64,000 nucleotides of DNA from Escherichia phage naam: the sequence record MN850630.1, one strand, 5' to 3'. Positions 8,951 to 16,195 of this stretch are shown here, one piece after another (the first letter of the stretch is position 1; the number at the start of each line of letters is the position of its first letter). Both the position numbers and the translations under genes were made by a program. The notes under the pieces are model-generated. The model had not been told where the DNA came from. It saw only the letters and a list, made by a program, of their open reading frames with translations, and did no database searches.

Positions 8951-9242
8951 AAACATTACCCCAGCAGGGTTCTTAAAAGTATACCGTGAACTGCTATATA
9001 CTACAGAGGACAGTGTTCTAGAGTATCCAGAATATCTTTTGCTGTATAAGTATCTACAGGAAGCTGGTGAAAATCTGCCAGTTAGTGCAGAAGGCGGTCC
9101 GAACTGGGTATACAGCGCATGGAGAAAGGTTGACATTCTCCCAGATCCAGGTAAAGATATGGTAGTTTGGCAGCTTATCAACAACATCGGGATTCCAATC
9201 TTTGATGAAGCTGTTAAAATCTATTTTGAACTTGACGATTAA
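8940..9242 (+). CDS. hypothetical protein
   Basis: ATG 8940 after AGGAGAAG RBS, in frame with track ORF 8922. Confidence 0.5.
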   Translation: MKTENITPAGFLKVYRELLYTTEDSVLEYPEYLLLYKYLQEAGENLPVSAEGGPNWVYSAWRKVDILPDPGKDMVVWQLINNIGIPIFDEAVKIYFELDD

Positions 9243-9259
9243 TATCAGGAGACCTTAAG

Positions 9260-9505
9260 ATGACTGAAGTAGTTGCTCGCGCAGGACAGAAAGTACGTTG
9301 TGTTGAAGTAGGTTTTGGTGGCAAAGGGTGTCAAAACTTGACTCAAGGTAAGGAATACGCTGTTATTTCTGGTGGTGGCGACGAAAGTATTGTGTTCGAG
9401 GGCCACATCCTGGATGCTGAAAACTTTGAAATCTTTGACGACGATGGGGATCCGATCACCTGCCTGCTGGACGGGAATTGGGGAACTTTTGAAGTGATTG
9501 GCTAA
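9260..9505 (+). CDS. hypothetical protein
   Basis: 81 aa, CAGGAGA RBS. Confidence 0.55.
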   Translation: MTEVVARAGQKVRCVEVGFGGKGCQNLTQGKEYAVISGGGDESIVFEGHILDAENFEIFDDDGDPITCLLDGNWGTFEVIG

Positions 9506-9588
9506 CAAATATCTATTGTAATTTACAGAAGGGGATGCTAAAATAGTGTCTCCTTCTATGTTGTTCAAATAAAATCGGAGATTCCATA

Positions 9589-9954
9589 ATGGAACAAATG
9601 AACGATCAAGCGTCGGTTGCGATGAACGAGCAAGAACAACCTCAAGAATTTTTCTTAGGGTTAAGTAAAGATCAAGTGTCTCTTCTGCTAGTGCTTTCTT
9701 CTTTCATGGGAAGACTTCAGGAGCTTACACAACAGCCAGAGGCTGAACAATTATTCCAGGCTCTGCGTGAAGAAGAAAAATATCGTCGTTTGGACTATGC
9801 CTTAGGTTGGGTAGCTCAACAACGGGATATGCTGATGGCCCTCTCTGGGACCACAAGTTTTGCAATGGGCCTGCTGGCTCAAGTTCAGGACAAATTAATT
9901 CAAGCAGGGTTTGCACACACGGCAAACACTAACGAAGAACAAGGAGACAAATAA
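9589..9954 (+). CDS. hypothetical protein
   Basis: 121 aa, coiled-coil-like, GGAGA RBS. Confidence 0.5.
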   Translation: MEQMNDQASVAMNEQEQPQEFFLGLSKDQVSLLLVLSSFMGRLQELTQQPEAEQLFQALREEEKYRRLDYALGWVAQQRDMLMALSGTTSFAMGLLAQVQDKLIQAGFAHTANTNEEQGDK

Positions 9955-11180
9955 TGAGCGTTATCCAACAATTCGCTAACCCGATGAATCCGCGTGAAAC
10001 TGTTTTACTGGCTCACGGCATGATTAAACGTGTCAGCATCAAGCCTATCAAAGGTGCTGATCCTACAACAGGTATTAAAACCACTGTGTGGCAAGGTAAG
10101 AAAATTGAATCCAGCCACACCATCTCTTTACTGATTTCTGAACTGGATTCCTCTGATAACCTGCTTCAAGGTGGTGAAGAAGTCTGGATCAGCATGGGTG
10201 ATAAACTGCTTAAACCGGGTCATCAAGACTCTGTCTCTGTTAAGATTGATGACAAGTGGGAAACCGTAACGCCAGGATGGATCGTAAATATCCCTTTGAA
10301 GGCAAACGAGCATAACGGTAAGACCTATTACAAAGGCTCACTGGCTAAGATGGTTAAGCTGGGTGCAGGAGAGGCTCCAGCAGCGGCTCAGCAGCAAAAA
10401 CAGCAACAAGGTGCACAATCACAAGGCCAGAAGCAGAAACCTCAGCAGAATGCCAATCAGGACGTTTTACGCATCTATGGTGATGTGACTCAGATTGTTG
10501 GCAACGTGGTTACTGTTAATGACCACAAGATTGGCGAAGGTGCTATGGTTGTCACTGATGAGCAGCTTAAAGACCTGGTGGTAGGTGGTCGTGTTGCAGC
10601 CATTGTTGACAAAGACACCGGAAACATTATCAGTGGTTTCAAGGCCTATCCTCCTAAGGCAGAGAACGGCACTCAAGGCTCTGGTGGCAAGCGTAAATCC
10701 TCTTACGACCCTATCGGTGTGGAGACGGGACATAGCATCAATGCGTTGCAGATCATCCTGGATCGCGGGTTTAAGGTGGACGACCCACTAGGCGTGGCTA
10801 AAACACTGCACGTAGTCACCATTGAGCTTAAGAAAGAGTATGCTCAAGCCACCAACCGAACTGAAGATGAAGTAGGTGCCAGTGTCGGCAATGCGGTGTT
10901 GAACGCTTGTCGCCGTATTGACAAGAAAACGAAAGTTGATGATTTTGCAGCGGCAATTACTGCAGAAGCAAAAGATGTCTTGACTAATCTGGCTGAGCCG
11001 TTGTACGATTGGATCAAGAACGGTGCTGGGTCCACTGACCATCAAGAACCTCAAGCTGCCAAACAGGAAGCAGCTCCACAGCAAAACACTGTAGACGCTC
11101 CTCCTGTAAATGACGAGGAAGATGACCCGATGGATCAGAATCCAGCACAGTACGCCTTTGATGATGACATCCCATTCTAA
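9954..11180 (+). CDS. single-stranded DNA-binding protein-like (acidic C-terminal tail DDDIPF)
   Basis: C-terminus ends DDDIPF as in bacterial SSB; Q-rich linker; AAGGAGA RBS; replication neighbourhood. Confidence 0.5.
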   Translation: MSVIQQFANPMNPRETVLLAHGMIKRVSIKPIKGADPTTGIKTTVWQGKKIESSHTISLLISELDSSDNLLQGGEEVWISMGDKLLKPGHQDSVSVKIDDKWETVTPGWIVNIPLKANEHNGKTYYKGSLAKMVKLGAGEAPAAAQQQKQQQGAQSQGQKQKPQQNANQDVLRIYGDVTQIVGNVVTVNDHKIGEGAMVVTDEQLKDLVVGGRVAAIVDKDTGNIISGFKAYPPKAENGTQGSGGKRKSSYDPIGVETGHSINALQIILDRGFKVDDPLGVAKTLHVVTIELKKEYAQATNRTEDEVGASVGNAVLNACRRIDKKTKVDDFAAAITAEAKDVLTNLAEPLYDWIKNGAGSTDHQEPQAAKQEAAPQQNTVDAPPVNDEEDDPMDQNPAQYAFDDDIPF

Positions 11181-11196
11181 CATCTAGTTAACATAG

Positions 11197-11225
11197 CCCT
11201 GCCCGAAAGGGTGGGGCATTTTTGT
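11197..11225 (+). terminator. rho-independent terminator (same cassette as 1061)
   Basis: GCCCTGCCC-GAAA-GGGTGGGGC + ATTTTT after SSB-like gene. Confidence 0.6.
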
Positions 11226-11242
11226 ATAAGGAGATCTGAAAA

Positions 11243-11659
11243 ATGACATTAGAAGATATCATTGTTAAACCTGAGAACTATGACCAATACAACCTGTCAA
11301 CTCAATCTGTAGACCTTGGATGCGCCACGGTCAGTGCGTGGATGGTTAACGGAAAAGAGCTGGATAAATGCTTAGAAGCTCACATGTCTATTAACAAGTT
11401 TCTGGATGAAAATACTCACTGGCTTGAGGGTGCAGGTGTGTATGCTTCATGGTTGGAGAGTATGGGATTCGACTACCAATCTGAAGAGGGGTGGTGGAGC
11501 TATTTAGCTATCTGCCCAGAGACGCTGCAATGCTTCATGAAATATTCTGAAGATTTGGAGTACCGGGCGGTGGTTGATAGTGCTATTGCCCGTTATAGCC
11601 GTAAACCTTTTTCCCACGACATTAAAACTGTGGAAGAATTTGTTGAAGTTTTCTGTTGA
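11243..11659 (+). CDS. hypothetical protein
   Basis: 138 aa, TAAGGAGA RBS. Confidence 0.55.
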   Translation: MTLEDIIVKPENYDQYNLSTQSVDLGCATVSAWMVNGKELDKCLEAHMSINKFLDENTHWLEGAGVYASWLESMGFDYQSEEGWWSYLAICPETLQCFMKYSEDLEYRAVVDSAIARYSRKPFSHDIKTVEEFVEVFC

Positions 11660-11755
11660 CACAAGTTGAAAGGTGTGCAATTATAACTTCATAGAACGGG
11701 AGGACGTGATGAACGAAGAAAACTGGGATGTATAACTAACAGGAGGCCACTGCCC

Positions 11756-11953
11756 ATGATTTATCGAATCCGTGTAAGAGAAGATGCACCAGGCTGTTAC
11801 TTTGACTGGCGTGGGTGGTGGTTTCTCCACCCGATGGATGGACTCACAGATAGAATGCTGGATGCTGCCCTTTATACAGATACCGATATAGAATATAATC
11901 TCTATCTGAAGGATGGTATAGATAACGGTCTATTTGAAGCAATTCCTGTGTAA
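11756..11953 (+). CDS. hypothetical protein
   Basis: 65 aa, CAGGAGG RBS. Confidence 0.5.
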   Translation: MIYRIRVREDAPGCYFDWRGWWFLHPMDGLTDRMLDAALYTDTDIEYNLYLKDGIDNGLFEAIPV

Positions 11954-12021
11954 GAAACTGTGATAGCCATGTTTTATGATCTTCCTGTAGCACCACCACC
12001 TGTTGAACCCGGAGAACTAAG

Positions 12022-12447
12022 ATGATCTATGAAATGCCAAAACTGATTCGTGACGATGCCCAAAACGCTCACACCATTATTATGGGCAAACGAATGGATA
12101 TTATTTGTCATAAAGATTTCTGGGAAGGAAGTTACTTCACAGAGTATTTTGGTAAACTGGACAATGGTCTGCTGATCCAGTTCTACACCGATGCGGAAAA
12201 CAACATTCACTGGGAGTTCGAAACTGAAGATATCCATAAACTTTTCACCTTCCTCGATATTAAGGTTGAGGCCAAGTTTGAAGAAGGTGAGTGCGACGAT
12301 TGTGGATTCTATGAGGTAACAGATTTCTATCTCCCGAGTGGTGAGAACCTTTACTATGAAAGCCACTTCGGTAACTCCAATATGCCACAGTGCTGGACTG
12401 AGTTTTTTGAAATTGCGGAAGAGGAGCTGGCATACCGTGATTATTGA
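12022..12447 (+). CDS. hypothetical acidic protein
   Basis: 141 aa, GGAGAA RBS; preferred over antisense ORF 11974..12498. Confidence 0.55.
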   Translation: MIYEMPKLIRDDAQNAHTIIMGKRMDIICHKDFWEGSYFTEYFGKLDNGLLIQFYTDAENNIHWEFETEDIHKLFTFLDIKVEAKFEEGECDDCGFYEVTDFYLPSGENLYYESHFGNSNMPQCWTEFFEIAEEELAYRDY

Positions 12448-12895
12448 TACTGTAGAGGGAGATCTAATCTCCATTTTCAAGAAAGGGTCAGGCCACATGA
12501 TCCACGGTTGTAACTGCTTTCACACAATGGGTGCAGGTATAGCGAAAGATATTGCCCGTGAGTTCCCTCAAGCACTGGCAGCCGACAAAGAGACTGCTTA
12601 TGGTAATCTAGACAAGTTGGGTATGTTTTCTTGTTGGGAGCATTTTGCCAAGAACAGGGTCGTATATGGAATCAACCTGTATACCCAGTTCTACCCAGGG
12701 CCCAATGCTGAATACTTCTCAATCATGAAAGGTTTTGAGCGAGTCAACGAGGTATTCAAAGGTGTGTCATTGCCGTTCTACATTCCTAAAATCGGATGCG
12801 GTATTGGCGGTCTAAAGTGGGAACATGTAGAAGATGTAATTAATCTTGCAACCACAGATATTGATGTGGTTGTGGTAGAGTACAAAAAGTGTTGA
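12437..12895 (+). CDS. macro-domain-like protein (putative ADP-ribose binding/processing)
   Basis: GDLISIF...HGCNCFHTMGAGIAKDI resembles macro-domain GDIT...NAAN..GGGV..AI motif; GTG start 12437 after GAGGAG. Confidence 0.45.
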   Translation: MIIDTVEGDLISIFKKGSGHMIHGCNCFHTMGAGIAKDIAREFPQALAADKETAYGNLDKLGMFSCWEHFAKNRVVYGINLYTQFYPGPNAEYFSIMKGFERVNEVFKGVSLPFYIPKIGCGIGGLKWEHVEDVINLATTDIDVVVVEYKKC

Positions 12896-12920
12896 CGACC
12901 ATCTTCTGAGGTGATATAGT
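12892..12920 (+). promoter_or_regulatory. sigma70-type promoter (TTGACG-17-TATAGT)
   Basis: Hexamers with 17-nt spacer read directly. Confidence 0.5.
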
Positions 12921-12949
12921 TCCCACAACAGCTAAGAGAGGAGAGCACT

Positions 12950-13120
12950 GTGGAGACTAAAATCTTAATTCTTGCTGTGGTAGATACAACCGAAGGAGCT
13001 ATATTCGAATCTGCAGGAGGGTATTTCTACCTACCATACGGAAAAAGAACTTCCGAGCCAAGTAAAGATTCAATCCTCAAAGTGTTCCCGTGTGCTTTCT
13101 GGCTGGAGATTTTGGTATAA
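12950..13120 (+). CDS. small hypothetical protein (56 aa)
   Basis: GTG start after AGAGGAGAG RBS, downstream of promoter; not in ORF track (under 60 aa). Confidence 0.35.
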   Translation: METKILILAVVDTTEGAIFESAGGYFYLPYGKRTSEPSKDSILKVFPCAFWLEILV

Positions 13121-13146
13121 GATTGCAGAGGATTTGGGAGAGAATT

Positions 13147-13341
13147 ATGAGAAACAAGAAAGAGCTTTACTCTGGTGAGTGGATCAACGATCAACAGGTG
13201 GGAGAGGTAACCTGCTTCAGATGTTTTACCAGGTACAATCTTAAAACTGCACCAAAAAGTGTTCCAAAGACTGATGGTTATTACATAAAAGAACCTCATT
13301 GCCCAAAATGTAAATGCCGATTGTGCTGGAGCAATCTGTAA
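13147..13341 (+). CDS. small Cys-rich (zinc-ribbon-like) protein
   Basis: CFRCF ... CPKCKCRLC cysteine pairs; ATG 13147 after GGGAGAG. Confidence 0.45.
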   Translation: MRNKKELYSGEWINDQQVGEVTCFRCFTRYNLKTAPKSVPKTDGYYIKEPHCPKCKCRLCWSNL

Positions 13342-13345
13342 GAGG

Positions 13346-13373
13346 TTGACATCTGAAAACTGCAGTGTATAAT
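13346..13373 (+). promoter_or_regulatory. sigma70 consensus promoter (TTGACA-16-TATAAT)
   Basis: Read directly upstream of 13405 gene. Confidence 0.65.
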
Positions 13374-13404
13374 ATACGCATAAACTAACAGAGAGCGATG
13401 CATT

Positions 13405-13596
13405 ATGGTAATTTTTAACCGGGATGGTATCATAGTTAGACAGCACCCGTTCCTTGAATACTATCAAATTGAGCAATGGTGCTACGGGGATTGCAGTCAC
13501 TCCTATGGGCAAAGTTGGGGATATCGTACAGTTTTTGAATCAACAGATCTTGACAAAGTAAGACAGAAAGTTTTAGAACTTATTAACAACAAGTGA
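13405..13596 (+). CDS. hypothetical protein
   Basis: 63 aa downstream of consensus promoter. Confidence 0.5.
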   Translation: MVIFNRDGIIVRQHPFLEYYQIEQWCYGDCSHSYGQSWGYRTVFESTDLDKVRQKVLELINNK

Positions 13597-13603
13597 GTAT
13601 GAT

Positions 13604-13939
13604 ATGGTAACATTAGAAAGACGTAAAGCTATCGCCGCCACACTGGCAGACATCTTTTGGGAGTGCAATTTAAAAGATACCCGATATTGTGGCGCATCTG
13701 TAGATGCATTATTCCCACGGCCCACTATTGTTGCAATGGGAAACCTGTCAAACGTGGTGTATGGAGCATGGGACAAAGAAGGTGGATTTTATATCTGGCA
13801 ACCTGACTACGGGACCTGGAAAGAGGTAAGGGGTGCGGATGACTTTGGGCCTGCAGTTGCCAAAACGATGGATGGCTGGCAAATTTATGTTGGAAATGAC
13901 ATGAAGCTGAAAGGCGAGATTGTTTACTGGTTACCTTAA
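13604..13939 (+). CDS. hypothetical protein
   Basis: 111 aa, GTGAG RBS. Confidence 0.55.
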   Translation: MVTLERRKAIAATLADIFWECNLKDTRYCGASVDALFPRPTIVAMGNLSNVVYGAWDKEGGFYIWQPDYGTWKEVRGADDFGPAVAKTMDGWQIYVGNDMKLKGEIVYWLP

Positions 13940-13959
13940 GAAAGTGCAGGAGATAAAGT

Positions 13960-14205
13960 ATGAACAAAGGGTGGACATTTGTAGACGGCGTTGAAAACAT
14001 GCCTCTAGGAAAGTATATTGTAGCCATGGCAGATGAGAATGGCAAGGTTGATTTCGGAGCTTGCGAGATTGTTCTTGCAGGATCTGGTGACCATGTGCAC
14101 AAAACTGGGATAATTAACGGTCATTTCTACTTTGATTACAACCCTGTTGTGGCGTATATGGCTATGCCAGAGTTAGAGCTCCCAAAGGAGGGTGCAGATG
14201 TTTAA
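13960..14205 (+). CDS. hypothetical protein
   Basis: 81 aa, CAGGAGA RBS. Confidence 0.55.
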   Translation: MNKGWTFVDGVENMPLGKYIVAMADENGKVDFGACEIVLAGSGDHVHKTGIINGHFYFDYNPVVAYMAMPELELPKEGADV

Positions 14206-14395
14206 GCTTAAATCTGCATGGAACATCGCTGTGGGGGACGAGATCCGCATCCCAGGTGGAAAGACCATTATGAAGATATCACGTATCGAGTATGAAGGTG
14301 ATCGTGTATTTCATATCTTTGCAGAAGATGGTCGAGAAATTTATATACAGGCAGGCTCTCATATCTATATCCATAAGAAAGGGGACGACAAATGA
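14192..14395 (+). CDS. hypothetical protein
   Basis: 67 aa, GGAGGG RBS. Confidence 0.55.
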   Translation: MQMFKLKSAWNIAVGDEIRIPGGKTIMKISRIEYEGDRVFHIFAEDGREIYIQAGSHIYIHKKGDDK

Positions 14396-14724
14396 CAGAG
14401 ATCATCGTTTCAACTGCAGGGTATGTATTCCTGACAATCATTGCGTTGGCTATTCTGGTGGCGGTGTATGGATTTGTTATCCTGCCTATTCTTGAGACAT
14501 TTAGCTTGTGTCGGTGTTGGAGAAAAGCTTACGGACCACAACCGTGGAAAGACTGGTTTCATTTGGTGCGTATAGCGTTCTCTTATGCCTATGATCACTC
14601 CAGCAGTGCATGCGTAACCGGGTACCATGCCTACAACTGGAACTGGGAAGGGCTGGGGAGATGGACTGTTACAAAAACTATACCCTTACGGTTGTATAAA
14701 GGAAAGAACACACTGGGAGCCTGA
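14392..14724 (+). CDS. putative membrane protein
   Basis: 110 aa, hydrophobic N-terminal helix, AAGGGG RBS, ATGA overlap. Confidence 0.5.
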   Translation: MTEIIVSTAGYVFLTIIALAILVAVYGFVILPILETFSLCRCWRKAYGPQPWKDWFHLVRIAFSYAYDHSSSACVTGYHAYNWNWEGLGRWTVTKTIPLRLYKGKNTLGA

Positions 14725-14759
14725 TATTTTAAGTTATCAGGTTGCCAGAGATCAGGAGG

Positions 14760-15260
14760 ATTTCTAAAATGGATTTCCTCCTTTTGATATTTTACCTACC
14801 AGGATATTTTAAAATCCTTAGAAAATCAGAAAATGGATCGAAAACTAAAATGGATTTTTCAGAGCAGGCACGACGAGATGAACCACTCATCCTATCGTCT
14901 GCACCATATTCCAGACCACCATTACAGATTTCCCGCACATGCTCACACCCTTCTACTAGAACTTCCCCCACTTACCCTTGACCTTTTATAGTAATAATCC
15001 AACCACTACCTTGAAGTTGTGGCGCAGCTTTCCAAGTACTCGATCTGTTTTTCGTTTCAAAGATTGAATTTTCTGAAAATTTTTCTCGATAAATTTCTCA
15101 GTACTCGATCTGTTTTTCGTTTTCTGAATCGGATTTTCTGGAAATCGTTCCGGCTCTCGACCTGAAATTTTTGGGGACGAAATCGATTTTTCGTTTTCAG
15201 AAATGGATTTTTAAAATTTCTATATGGGAATATTTTAGTGGATACTATTTTATAGGAAAT
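14760..15260. repeat. AT-rich non-coding region with iteron-like direct repeats and palindromes
   Basis: AAATGGAT(T/C) four times; 23-nt direct repeat AGTACTCGATCTGTTTTTCGTTT at 15038 and 15100; palindromes ATTTTCTGAAAAT, AGGATATTTTAAAATCCT. Confidence 0.6.
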
Positions 15261-15358
15261 TGTTACGGAGGGTAATTAGCGTGCTAATTAAATTTATTAA
15301 ATGCGAGGAGTTCTCATTTAGAATTTTGAATGATAATCATTCTCGTTTGCAGAATAAC

Positions 15359-15400
15359 GGGCAGGCCCGGTGATTGTCTCCCGGCCCCTGTTGCCCCGGC
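15359..15400. repeat. GC-rich conserved hairpin element, copy 1
   Basis: GGCAGGCCCGGTGATTGTCTCCCGGCCCCTGTT; conserved core GGTG(A/G)TTGTCTCCC. Confidence 0.55.
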
Positions 15401-15498
15401 TTGTTATTATAGTATCACACAGGACAAAGAAGGCAAGGATTTTTTGCATAAATTTTTAAATGATAATGATAACCGTTCTCATTTTATGCAGCGCCCAT

Positions 15499-15535
15499 CC
15501 CCGGTGGTTGTCTCCCCCGTCACCGGTGCCTGCCG
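15499..15535. repeat. GC-rich conserved hairpin element, copy 2
   Basis: CCGGTGGTTGTCTCCCCCGTCACCGGTGCCTGCC; stem CCGGTG/CACCGG around TTGTCTCCC. Confidence 0.55.
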
Positions 15536-15737
15536 TCCTTTCGATAGGTATATTGTGCCACCTGGCGGGGCCGCTGTCAACACCTTTTCAAAAAATTTTT
15601 CTAACCTGATGCGCTAACCGTTGCAACCTGGCGGGGCCAGCCTGGCAGGACCTAACTGACCAGGTGGGAGAGGGTGAAATCTTGCAAACCTGGTAGGCCC
15701 ATGCTGTAGGGTAAACAATTGAAGAGGAGGTACAAAA

Positions 15738-15980
15738 ATGAAAGGTAATGCTACTCACCTGGGAAATGTAGCGATTAATGACGCTGAGGCTATCACCCTG
15801 GTTGAAAAGGCTATGGCGGGAGCGTTGGAACATAAAGAAGAGTACGAAAAAATGATGGTTAACCTGGCAGGGGCGGCGGCTGGAGAATTCTGCCCAAAAA
15901 ATAATTCTAACCAATGGTTGACAGCTCGGATAGTTCTGTTATTCTTATCCTCGCAAGGTGAACAACACCACACTAATTAA
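15738..15980 (+). CDS. hypothetical protein
   Basis: 80 aa, GAGGAGG RBS. Confidence 0.55.
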   Translation: MKGNATHLGNVAINDAEAITLVEKAMAGALEHKEEYEKMMVNLAGAAAGEFCPKNNSNQWLTARIVLLFLSSQGEQHHTN

Positions 15981-15997
15981 CAGAGAGGATAAAAATC

Positions 15998-16195
15998 ATG
16001 AACGCCTACGGAATTAAAGTACGTCGCAACACTCGCCAGGCCGTCACCGATCAAATGGTTTGCCAGGTGGACGTAACCATCAACAACGGGCAAGGCCTTT
16101 ATAAATTCCGTCGCGGTCAGAGCTATACCCGGCAACAGCTTAATCGTTGCGCCCTGACAAAAGGCCAGATCAACCACTGGTTTAATAAAAAATAA
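15998..16195 (+). CDS. small basic protein
   Basis: 65 aa, R/K-rich, AGAGGA RBS. Confidence 0.5.
   Translation: MNAYGIKVRRNTRQAVTDQMVCQVDVTINNGQGLYKFRRGQSYTRQQLNRCALTKGQINHWFNKK

What the first reader, a model, noticed from the sequence alone, without database searches (positions are those of the whole stretch)
12437..12895. Macro-domain-like protein in the early region
GDLISIF...HGCNCFHTMGAGIAKDI resembles the N-terminal ADP-ribose-binding motif of macro domains. A phage macro domain could reverse ADP-ribosylation of DNA or protein, or degrade ADP-ribose-derived signalling molecules, as a counter-defence. The assignment rests on a short motif and is tentative.
Basis: inference. Interest (0 to 1): 0.45.

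Follow-up and report, generated by a model that had tools for sequence, protein, structure and literature searches.

The report
Phage macro-domain ADP-ribose hydrolase (Tk.4/AdfM)
This gene of an rV5-like E. coli phage encodes a small macro-domain enzyme, the counterpart of phage T4 Tk.4/AdfM, that most likely strips ADP-ribose off phage DNA to defeat the bacterial DarTG2 defence; it is real but already annotated and largely explained.

Summary
Window 12437-12895 (+) is a 152-aa gene with a GTG start and a Shine-Dalgarno site; it overlaps the upstream gene by 11 nt. The product is a macro domain: Pfam PF01661 above threshold, PHROG 335 at E 1.7e-59, and an AlphaFold model (pLDDT 96) whose best PDB matches are TARG1, Poa1p, DarG and SCO6735.

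The window is a Vequintavirus (rV5-like). The protein is 98.7% identical to rV5 ORF209, annotated "Tk.4". It is 68% identical to the Krischvirus Tk.4, which sits in the T4-type regB-vs-tk.4-tk slot, and 39% identical to T4 Tk.4. A 2025 preprint named T4 Tk.4 AdfM, because deleting it sensitises T4 to DarTG2.

The active site has the conserved Asn (N26). It has Gln (Q84) where DarG and TARG1 have their catalytic Lys, as in SCO6735, which removes thymidine-linked ADP-ribose from DNA. There is no DarT-binding domain and no toxin gene nearby.

The main rival is an ADPR-1''-phosphate phosphatase (Adpp) serving the NARP1 NAD+ pathway. Some family members sit in such operons, but this phage type has no Adps or Namat gene. 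A bootstrapped tree does not resolve AdfM-like from Adpp-like placement.

Verdict: an ordinary, already annotated gene, with function inferred by orthology and untested in this phage.

The parts
12437..12895 (+). Coding sequence of the 152-aa single-domain macro protein (GTG start, TGA stop); orthologue of rV5 ORF209 / Bas54 bas54_0092 / T4 tk.4 (adfM)
12417..12426 (+). Shine-Dalgarno-like GGAAGAGGAG, 10 nt upstream of the GTG start
   Evidence: Read directly from the sequence
12437..12447 (+). 11-nt overlap between the end of the upstream gene and the start of the macro gene. It suggests co-transcription and possibly translational coupling (inference).
   Evidence: the same overlap is annotated in rV5, A51.2, Bas54 and 10C2
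12022..12447 (+). Upstream 141-aa gene of unknown function (phrog_8157; rV5 ORF210), probably in the same transcription unit. There is no evidence that it is a functional partner.
   Evidence: Its RB49 homologue is not adjacent to RB49 tk.4 (accession numbers in the rV5 notes).
12458..12463 (+). Codons G8-D9 (the 'GD' motif). They align with G19-D20 of TARG1's 'KGDL' motif; an adenine-contacting role is assumed from general macro-domain knowledge.
   Evidence: Alignments. Across 198 family members, position 8 is G in 191 and position 9 is D in 172 and N in 24.
12503..12544 (+). Codons H23-A36 (HGCNCFHTMGAGIA): first ADP-ribose-binding/catalytic loop, holding invariant N26 (codon 12512-12514). 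N26 is equivalent to DarG N22, SCO6735 N27 and PhiKZ AdfM N23.
   Evidence: literature PMC9411070 and PMC13309987
12674..12688 (+). Codons N80-L-Y-T-Q84, with Q84 at 12686-12688. The invariant Gln sits where DarG K80 and TARG1 K84 sit, and is equivalent to SCO6735 Q85.
   Evidence: Q in 198 of 198; PMC9411070 reports that Q85A abolishes SCO6735 activity
12785..12811 (+). Codons P117-G125 (PKIGCGIGG): second glycine-rich diphosphate-binding loop. G124 takes the place of TARG1 D125, so there is no Lys/Asp dyad.
11656..11684 (+). Sigma-70-like promoter match (TTGACA-17-AATTAT with TG), a candidate promoter for the unit 11756-12895. A terminator-like hairpin at 11196-11217 precedes it.
   Evidence: consensus scan only; not evidence of function

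Best explanation
The gene encodes a stand-alone, single-domain macro-domain ADP-ribosyl hydrolase of the ALC1-like (TARG1 / DarG / SCO6735 / Poa1p) class. It is the vequintavirus counterpart of T4 Tk.4 (AdfM).

Most likely mechanism:
1. The gene is expressed with the replication-proximal small genes.
2. The protein binds the ADP-ribose that the host toxin DarT2 attaches to thymidines of single-stranded phage DNA.
3. It hydrolyses the thymine-C1'' bond, releasing free ADP-ribose and restoring replicable DNA.
4. It therefore acts as an orphan 'antitoxin' enzyme against DarTG2-type defence.

Catalysis would use the conserved Asn26 and Gln84, the SCO6735-type site in which a water is activated and there is no catalytic Lys or Lys/Asp dyad. 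The protein has no DarT-binding domain, so it should work by erasing the modification rather than by sequestering the toxin.

What is shown here is the gene, the fold, the motifs, the family placement and the absence of NARP1 and DarT genes. The phenotype (T4 AdfM) and the chemistry (SCO6735, PhiKZ AdfM) are taken from the literature on homologues. That this particular protein does the same is inference.
For: - Macro fold and class.
- The macro half of the DarG models is matched: PADLOC DarG E 9.6e-13 over model positions 4-143 of 329, and NCBIfam antitoxin_DarG E 7e-12 over 3-144 of 338.
- Homology to T4 Tk.4 runs the full length: 39% identity, E 1e-43.
- The protein is 68% identical to the Krischvirus Tk.4, which occupies the T4-type regB-vs-tk.4-tk slot. 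The vequintavirus + Krischvirus clade has 199/200 bootstrap support.
- T4 tk.4 was the single significant hit of a transposon screen on a DarTG2 host, and its clean deletion sensitised T4 to DarTG2 (bioRxiv 10.1101/2025.11.20.689424).
- Both the T4 and Bas54 orthologues are dispensable on defence-free K-12: 45 of 46 and 31 of 31 TA sites hit. That fits an accessory counter-defence gene.
- N26 and Q84 are invariant in 198 family members.
- SCO6735, with the same Asn/Gln pair, removes thymidine-linked ADP-ribose from DNA, and its Q85A mutant is dead (PMC9411070).
- PhiKZ AdfM shows that a stand-alone phage macro domain can de-ADP-ribosylate DNA and defeat DarTG2 (PMC13309987).
- No Adps or Namat gene is present in the window or in the rest of a 98%-identical genome.
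Against: - No experiment exists on any vequintavirus protein.
- The evidence for T4 AdfM is genetic only; enzymatic removal was described there as 'likely'.
- Identity to T4 Tk.4 (39%) is only slightly above identity to NARP1-operon-linked members of the same family (37%).
- A clade joining the window protein with T4 Tk.4, to the exclusion of NARP1-linked members, was recovered in only 80 of 200 bootstraps.
- The N-terminal motif (H23, T30) also matches Poa1p H23/S30 (PDB mutant names).
- About 80 bacterial relatives are stand-alone genes with no DarT neighbour, so the family is not obviously derived from DarTG.
Confidence: 0.6

Rival explanations
1. ADPR-1''-phosphate phosphatase (Adpp / Poa1p-like). 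The enzyme would dephosphorylate the ADPR-1''-P made by RES-domain NAD+ phosphorylase defences (aRES), or as an RNA-repair by-product, yielding ADP-ribose.
For: - PHROG 335 is labelled 'phosphatase', and public records call the protein 'Poa1p-like' or 'phosphatase'.
- Purified Adpp of Vibrio phage Gary converts ADPR-1P to ADPR and lets NARP1 overcome aRES (bioRxiv 10.64898/2026.01.28.702374).
- Gary Adpp is 98.7% identical to Rocket24 gp171, which is a homologue of the window protein (33% identity, hit H63).
- Two closer family members (37% identity, same HGCNC/YTQ signature) lie between or beside Adps and Namat genes: L153 and L025.
- H23 and T30 align with Poa1p H23 and S30.
- The tree does not separate the two options.
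Against: - Adpp is useful only as a feeder for NARP1. tblastn with three Adps and three Namat proteins finds nothing significant in the window (no hit at E<=1e-3) or in the remaining 72 kb of a 98%-identical vequintavirus genome (best hit 29 bits, E 0.016-0.028).
- Only 1-3 of 80 viral loci of the family are NARP1-linked.
- The best characterised relative by score and by synteny is T4 Tk.4 (128 bits), not Adpp (64 bits).
- Poa1p F152 aligns with Gly124.
Confidence: 0.12
2. A promiscuous C1''-hydrolase with more than one physiological substrate. The same active site would remove thymine-linked ADP-ribose from DNA and also cleave small ADP-ribose conjugates such as ADPR-1''-P, O-acetyl-ADPR and possibly His-ADPR-type signals. 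One small gene would then blunt several NAD+/ADPR-based defences.
For: - Both activities are documented within one sequence family, and they share invariant N26, Q84, D50, N80 and Y82.
- The related enzymes TARG1 and SCO6735 act on both DNA and protein substrates (PMC9411070).
- Macro domains are known to process any group attached at the 1'' or 2'' position (PMC9503650).
- The family is very widespread: 2,740 phage records.
Against: - No enzyme of this family has been assayed on both substrate types.
- DarG and the NADAR enzymes are base-specific.
- This is inference only.
Confidence: 0.18
3. A protein or RNA de-ADP-ribosylase. It would reverse host ART toxins acting on proteins or mRNA, or tune modifications made by a phage-encoded ADP-ribosyltransferase, as T4 has with Alt/ModA/ModB.
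For: - The closest structural match is TARG1, a protein Glu-ADPr hydrolase.
- SCO6735 also de-modifies proteins.
- Macro domains and ARTs co-occur in many myoviruses (PMC9503650).
Against: - The TARG1 catalytic dyad is absent: K84 becomes Q84 and D125 becomes G124.
- No ART is annotated in the window's counterpart regions or found among the ten neighbouring genes.
- The T4 screen tied tk.4 specifically to DarTG2.
Confidence: 0.08

Closest known systems
Phage T4 Tk.4 = AdfM (anti-DarT factor macrodomain; bioRxiv 10.1101/2025.11.20.689424)
   Same: - Same length and single-domain architecture.
- 39% identity over the full length, E 1e-43.
- Same invariant HGCNCFHTMG and NLYTQ motifs, including Gln at the 'catalytic Lys' position.
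- Non-essential on K-12, as is the Bas54 orthologue.
- The Krischvirus Tk.4, in the same genomic slot as T4 tk.4, is 68% identical to the window protein.
   Different: - Different phage group (Vequintavirinae, not Straboviridae) and different gene neighbours.
- Tree support for a common clade that excludes NARP1-linked members is weak, 80 of 200.
- The anti-DarTG2 phenotype is untested for the vequintavirus protein.
SCO6735 of Streptomyces coelicolor (PDB 5E3B; PMC9411070)
   Same: - Stand-alone ALC1-like macro domain without a cognate DarT.
- Asn (N27) plus Gln (Q85) active site in place of the DarG/TARG1 Lys.
- The enzyme removes thymidine-linked ADP-ribose from DNA.
   Different: - Only 24% identity.
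- The window protein lacks the long 'mobile loop' insertion (KTGSKG) that typifies the SCO6735/BT1257 subclass.
- It has Gly24 where SCO6735 has Val25.
- It is acidic (pI 5.9 against 9.75).
DarG antitoxin of DarTG2 (Thermus aquaticus 5M31/5M3E, M. tuberculosis 5M3I; NCBIfam NF048014)
   Same: - Macro fold with Foldseek TM about 0.75.
- Best profile hit in PDB, E 3.6e-14.
- The Asn equivalent to N22 is conserved.
   Different: - No C-terminal DarT-binding domain: 45 bits against a 250-bit cut-off, covering only the first 144 of 338 model positions.
- No adjacent DarT gene.
- Catalytic K80 is replaced by Gln84.
PhiKZ gp104 = chimallivirus AdfM (PMC13309987)
   Same: A stand-alone phage macro domain that removes DarT2-made ADP-ribose from DNA and protects against DarTG2. 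It has the same proposed role and a similarly acidic protein.
   Different: - Only 22% identity, pairwise E 9e-5.
- It keeps the DarG-type Lys (K78) and groups with DarG in 199 of 200 bootstraps, so it is an independent lineage.
- It is imported into the phage nucleus and expressed late.
Adpp of Vibrio phage Gary (NARP1-AP pathway; bioRxiv 10.64898/2026.01.28.702374) and yeast Poa1p (PDB 6LFQ)
   Same: - Same broad family: PHROG 335, with an H-x-CNC ... G-x-G motif and Gln at the equivalent position.
- 33% identity to Adpp (hit H63).
- Poa1p is among the top structural hits.
   Different: - Adpp sits inside an Adps-Adpp-Namat operon, whereas this phage has neither Adps nor Namat.
- Adpp has a longer loop after the Gln.
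- Poa1p F152 corresponds to Gly124.
Human TARG1/OARD1 (PDB 4J5R/4J5S)
   Same: Best Foldseek match: E 4e-10, TM 0.75-0.81, 23% identity. It has the same compact, roughly 150-aa domain.
   Different: The Lys84/Asp125 catalytic dyad is absent, replaced by Gln84/Gly124.

Membership tests
Macro domain superfamily (Pfam PF01661) | Profile match above the curated threshold | tested here: met
   25.9 bits against a gathering score of 22, E 1e-5. Most homologues carry precomputed PF01661.
Macro domain superfamily (Pfam PF01661) | Three-layer alpha/beta/alpha macro fold | tested here: met
   AF2 model with pLDDT 96.3 and pTM 0.90. All 50 listed Foldseek PDB hits are macro domains or designs built on one; TM to TARG1 is 0.75-0.81.
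Macro domain superfamily (Pfam PF01661) | ADP-ribose-binding motifs: the GD motif, an Asn-containing loop with GxG, and a second Gly-rich loop | tested here: met
   G8-D9, N26...G32-A33-G34 and G120-C-G122-I-G124-G125 align with the corresponding loops of DarG, SCO6735 and TARG1 and are conserved in 198 relatives.
Macro domain superfamily (Pfam PF01661) | Actual binding or hydrolysis of ADP-ribose derivatives | not testable with these tools
   Needs biochemistry.
ALC1-like class (TARG1 / DarG / SCO6735 / Poa1p) | Closest structural and profile neighbours belong to this class rather than to the MacroD, PARG or viral Mac1 classes | tested here: met
   The top PDB profile hits (DarG, SCO6735, BT1257, TARG1, Poa1p) score E 1e-14 to 1e-11, whereas coronavirus Mac1 scores about 5e-4. 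The Foldseek order agrees.
DarG antitoxin (NCBIfam NF048014; PADLOC DarG) | Two-domain protein: N-terminal macro domain plus C-terminal DarT-binding domain, scoring above the equivalog cut-off | tested here: not met
   45.2 bits against a cut-off of 250. Only model positions 3-144 of 338 (and 4-143 of 329 in PADLOC) are matched, and the protein is 152 aa.
DarG antitoxin (NCBIfam NF048014; PADLOC DarG) | Encoded next to a DarT toxin gene | tested here: not met
   The ten flanking genes (window 9589-14205) have no Pfam or PADLOC hit to DarT or any defence protein. The host genome is a lytic phage.
DarG antitoxin (NCBIfam NF048014; PADLOC DarG) | Catalytic lysine (K80 in T. aquaticus DarG) | tested here: not met
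   Gln84 occupies that column and is invariant in the family.
T4 Tk.4 / AdfM family | Full-length sequence homology to T4 Tk.4 with shared signature motifs | tested here: met
   39% identity, E 1e-43, 150 of 152 residues aligned. HGCNCFHTMG and NLYTQ are identical.
T4 Tk.4 / AdfM family | Orthology (common descent of the gene lineage) rather than mere family membership | tested here: inconclusive
   For: 68% identity to the Krischvirus gene in the tk.4 slot, and a clade with 199 of 200 bootstraps. Against: a window + T4 clade excluding NARP1-linked members appears in only 80 of 200 bootstraps, and identity to those members is 37% against 39% to T4.
T4 Tk.4 / AdfM family | Dispensable without the defence, required on DarTG2 hosts | not testable with these tools
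   The first half is met in the literature for Bas54 bas54_0092 (31 of 31 TA sites hit, 'Non-essential'). The DarTG2 half is untested for any vequintavirus.
Adpp (NARP1-AP ADPR-1''-P phosphatase) | Macro gene embedded in or adjacent to an Adps-Namat (NARP1) operon | tested here: not met
   No Adps or Namat homologue in the window (no hit at E<=1e-3) or in the rest of a 98%-identical genome (best hit 29 bits, E 0.016-0.028). Compare Rocket24.
Adpp (NARP1-AP ADPR-1''-P phosphatase) | Close sequence relationship to the characterised Adpp | tested here: inconclusive
   33% identity and 64 bits to Rocket24/Gary Adpp; 37% and 88-98 bits to the other NARP1-linked members; 128 bits to T4 Tk.4.
SCO6735 subclass | Gln in place of the catalytic Lys, together with the conserved Asn | tested here: met
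   Q84 aligns with Q85 and N26 with N27.
SCO6735 subclass | Extended mobile loop after the Gln (stated in PMC9411070 to be characteristic of the subclass) | tested here: not met
   The 6-7-residue insertion of SCO6735 and BT1257 is absent.

The most novel reading that the evidence does not exclude
The Tk.4-type macro domain may be a broad-specificity ADP-ribose C1''-hydrolase that uses a Gln-based, lysine-free active site. A single 152-aa enzyme would then both erase DarT2 marks on DNA and destroy small ADP-ribose conjugates: ADPR-1''-P from aRES, and perhaps His-ADPR-type Thoeris signals. That would explain why one family supplies both 'AdfM' and 'Adpp' and why it occurs in thousands of phages. 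The family-specific invariant residues D50, N80 and Y82 would be part of this distinct catalytic solution.
Probability: 0.15. Interest if true: 0.55.

Novelty: already known. Interest (0 to 1): 0.22.

Why it matters
If the inference holds, rV5-like (Vequintavirus) phages, which are used for typing and biocontrol of E. coli O157, carry a ready-made enzyme against DarTG2. That helps predict host range on strains with this defence.

The useful residue from this check is a caution and a testable question. One sequence family (PHROG 335, signature HGCNC...YTQ) now holds members assigned to two different counter-defence jobs: DNA de-ADP-ribosylation (AdfM) and ADPR-1''-P dephosphorylation (Adpp). 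Sequence alone does not separate them. Genomic context, meaning the presence or absence of NARP1, is at present the only discriminator.

This family uses Gln where PhiKZ AdfM and DarG use Lys. 'AdfM' therefore names at least two independent phage lineages.

Tried and rejected
- Longer ORF from the GTG at 12338 (185 aa). Rejected: it would run through the upstream gene, whereas the homologues and the Shine-Dalgarno site support 12437.
- Minus-strand ORFs overlapping the locus (11974-12498, 12778-12948). No support; the plus-strand gene has strong homology and dN/dS of about 0.1.
- Membership in DarG proper. Rejected: no C-terminal domain, no DarT gene, no catalytic Lys.
- Search for a conserved partner gene among 80 bacterial loci. 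No neighbour cluster was present in more than 6 of 80, so these are stand-alone genes and the context is uninformative.
- Phylogeny to decide AdfM-like versus Adpp-like. The first attempt timed out and the second was spoiled by invalid distances. The corrected run left the key node unresolved at 80 of 200.
- Net charge or pI as an indicator of DNA binding. Uninformative: the window protein and T4 Tk.4 are acidic, but so is PhiKZ AdfM, which does act on DNA.
- NARP1 genes in the phage. None were found.
- Direct data on vequintaviruses versus DarTG2 in the literature. None were found. The rV5 genome paper does not mention the gene.
- Residues mutated in Adpp. They are not given in the text of the preprint, so no residue-level discrimination was possible.
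Full report
**What is there.** Window 12437-12895 (+) translates to a 152-residue protein that contains the quoted peptide. The mechanical ORF extends upstream to a GTG at 12338. The GTG at 12437 is the real start, for three reasons. A GGAAGAGGAG Shine-Dalgarno site lies 10 nt upstream. The upstream gene (12022-12447) ends 11 nt inside the macro gene, and the same arrangement is annotated in rV5, A51.2, Bas54 and 10C2. The Krischvirus homologue starts with ATG at the same residue.

**Which genome.** The window is an rV5-like Vequintavirus. Bases 11000-14500 are 96-98% identical to more than 100 such phages. The protein is 98.7% identical to rV5 ORF209, annotated in 2006 as 'Tk.4 conserved hypothetical protein'. 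Other records call it 'macro domain protein', 'Poa1p-like family protein' or 'phosphatase'.

**Is it a macro domain?** Yes.
- Pfam PF01661 passes its gathering score (25.9 against 22 bits).
- PHROG 335 matches at E 1.7e-59.
- The single sequence finds SCO6735, M. tuberculosis DarG, Poa1p and TARG1 in PDB.
- A 47-sequence profile raises these to E 1e-14 to 1e-11, far ahead of coronavirus Mac1 at about 5e-4.
- AlphaFold2 gives pLDDT 96.3 and pTM 0.90.
- Foldseek's best PDB matches are TARG1 (E 4e-10, TM 0.75-0.81), Poa1p, T. aquaticus and M. tuberculosis DarG, the T. africanus DarTG fusion, BT1257 and SCO6735.

This places the protein in the ALC1-like class. The gene is under purifying selection: dN/dS is 0.11 against the 82%-identical 10C2 allele and 0.07 against the Krischvirus gene.

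**Active site.** MAFFT and HMM alignments agree on the following.
- N26 corresponds to DarG N22, SCO6735 N27 and PhiKZ AdfM N23.
- Q84 occupies the column of the catalytic lysine of DarG (K80) and TARG1 (K84), which is also the column of SCO6735 Gln85.
- TARG1 D125 is replaced by G124.
- The long mobile loop of the SCO6735/BT1257 subclass is absent.

Among 198 relatives (phage and bacterial), N26, Q84, D50, N80 and Y82 are invariant. Positions 23-31 were partly pre-selected by the search pattern in the bacterial set; the other positions were not.

For SCO6735, the literature reports removal of thymidine-linked but not guanosine-linked ADP-ribose from DNA. It also reports loss of activity in Q85A and N27 mutants, and a proposed water-mediated mechanism with no catalytic Lys (PMC9411070).

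**Closest characterised relatives.** T4 Tk.4 is 39% identical over the full length (E 1e-43). A transposon screen found tk.4 to be the only T4 gene that becomes important on a DarTG2 host. A clean deletion sensitised T4, and the gene was named adfM. Enzymatic removal of ADP-ribose from DNA was put forward there as likely, not shown (bioRxiv 10.1101/2025.11.20.689424).

The Krischvirus (RB49-like, Straboviridae) gene lies in the regB-vs-tk.4-tk slot and is 68% identical to the window protein. The two form a clade in 199 of 200 bootstraps. That is the best argument that the vequintavirus gene belongs to the tk.4 lineage, probably through exchange between the two phage groups.

In the same preprint's supplements, T4 tk.4 (45 of 46 TA sites hit) and Bas54 bas54_0092 (31 of 31) are non-essential on K-12. 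Bas54 is 97% identical to the window over 11000-14500, and its macro protein differs from the window protein at three residues.

A second protein also called AdfM is PhiKZ gp104. It de-ADP-ribosylates DNA in vitro and protects chimalliviruses from DarTG2 (PMC13309987). It is only 22% identical to the window protein, keeps the DarG-type lysine, and groups with DarG in 199 of 200 bootstraps. It is therefore an independent lineage.

**Not a DarG.** The protein matches only the macro half of the DarG models. PADLOC covers positions 4-143 of 329. NCBIfam gives 45 bits against a cut-off of 250, covering positions 3-144 of 338. It lacks the catalytic Lys. None of its ten neighbours has any defence or DarT hit.

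Bacterial relatives (318 loci found, 80 examined, about 40% identity) are stand-alone genes of roughly 150 aa. No neighbour is conserved in more than 6 of the 80 loci.

**The serious rival.** In Vibrio phage Rocket24, the homologue gp171 sits between a PRPP-synthetase-like gene and a nicotinate-phosphoribosyltransferase-like gene. It is 98.7% identical to Gary Adpp. A January 2026 preprint shows that this macro protein dephosphorylates ADPR-1''-P, the product of the aRES NAD+ phosphorylase defence, so that NARP1 can rebuild NAD+.

Two closer family members, L153 and L025, are also NARP1-linked. They carry the same HGCNC/YTQ signature and are 37% identical to the window protein.

Pairwise bit scores rank the window protein's relatives as follows.

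| Relative | Bits |
|---|---|
| Krischvirus Tk.4 | 219 |
| T4 Tk.4 | 128 |
| L025 (NARP1-linked) | 98 |
| L153 (NARP1-linked) | 88 |
| Rocket24/Gary Adpp | 64 |
| SCO6735 | 40 |
| M. tuberculosis DarG | 38 |
| PhiKZ AdfM | 26 |

A clade holding the window protein and T4 Tk.4, but none of the NARP1-linked members, appears in only 80 of 200 bootstraps. Sequence alone does not settle the matter.

Context does help. tblastn with three Adps and three Namat proteins finds nothing in the window (no hit at E<=1e-3). It also finds nothing significant in the remaining 72 kb of a 98%-identical genome, OR844766, which abuts both ends of the window (best hit 29 bits, E 0.016-0.028). Without NARP1, an ADPR-1''-P phosphatase has no evident pay-off. 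Only 1-3 of the 80 IMG/VR loci of the family are NARP1-linked.

**Conclusion.** The finding is real and its interpretation is essentially right, but the gene is already annotated and its T4 counterpart already has a published role.

The most likely function is erasure of DarT2-made thymidine ADP-ribosylation on phage DNA. It would use a SCO6735-like Asn/Gln active site and act as an orphan antitoxin-like enzyme. I put confidence at about 0.6 for that specific role and above 0.95 for 'macro-domain ADP-ribose-processing enzyme'.

A promiscuous hydrolase that also handles small ADP-ribose conjugates is not excluded and is the most interesting open reading.

Noticed in passing
window 9954-11180 (+): This 408-aa protein has no Pfam, PADLOC or PDB sequence match (phrog_4477). 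It has a Gln-rich linker and ends in ...PMDQNPAQYAFDDDIPF, which from my own knowledge is the C-terminal tip motif of E. coli SSB (DDDIPF). It lies just downstream of the DNA polymerase block, and its Bas54 orthologue bas54_0087 is scored 'Essential' (8 of 57 TA sites hit). It may be a phage SSB-like or SSB-tail-mimicking replication protein, and it is annotated as hypothetical everywhere.
   Followed up: partly
window 13147-13341 (+); L007:2946-3140: This 64-aa zinc-binding protein (Pfam PF23903 Phage_zn_bind_2, E 9e-22) is 77% identical to the gene that directly follows, and overlaps, tk.4 in Krischvirus UPWr_E1. The macro gene and this small gene therefore seem to have moved together between RB49-like and rV5-like phages. 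T4 has an unrelated DUF7202 gene in that position. Whether it is a functional partner of the macro protein is unknown.
   Followed up: partly
window ~12500-13000 versus L006 (phage vB_EcoM_10C2_SA_NWU): Nucleotide identity between two vequintaviruses falls to 68-84% over the macro gene, while the flanks are 94-99% identical. This is a local mosaic, an allele replacement. In one search, 45 phage records fell in the 95-99% protein-identity band and 61 in the 80-90% band. dN/dS stays at about 0.1.
   Followed up: partly
window ~11180-11243; L001:4121-4744; L005:198-821: Many relatives (rV5 ORF213, bas54_0088, PMBT16) carry an endonuclease VII / homing-endonuclease gene of about 620 bp between the 408-aa gene and the next gene. 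The window, like A51.2, lacks it. This is a presence/absence polymorphism of a mobile endonuclease.
   Followed up: no
window 13346-13373 (+): A perfect sigma-70 consensus promoter (TTGACA-16-TATAAT) sits just upstream of the 63-aa gene at 13405. It matches the position of rV5's annotated promoter P205. Promoter-like sites in 9000-16000 number 23, against 13 +/- 3.5 expected from shuffles.
   Followed up: no
L088:3132-6138 (Vibrio phage Rocket24); L153:4362-6929; L025:3733-6468: These loci carry three-gene Adps-macro-Namat (NARP1-AP) operons. L025 is a contig of a Cocleimonas MAG in which the macro gene follows Namat rather than sitting between the two genes. L140 and L155 have a Namat-like gene near the macro gene but no detected Adps.
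   Followed up: partly
window protein residues D50, K60, N80, Y82 (codons 12584-12586, 12614-12616, 12674-12676, 12680-12682): D50, N80 and Y82 are invariant, and K60 nearly invariant, in 198 relatives. They have no counterpart in DarG, TARG1 or SCO6735.
   Followed up: no
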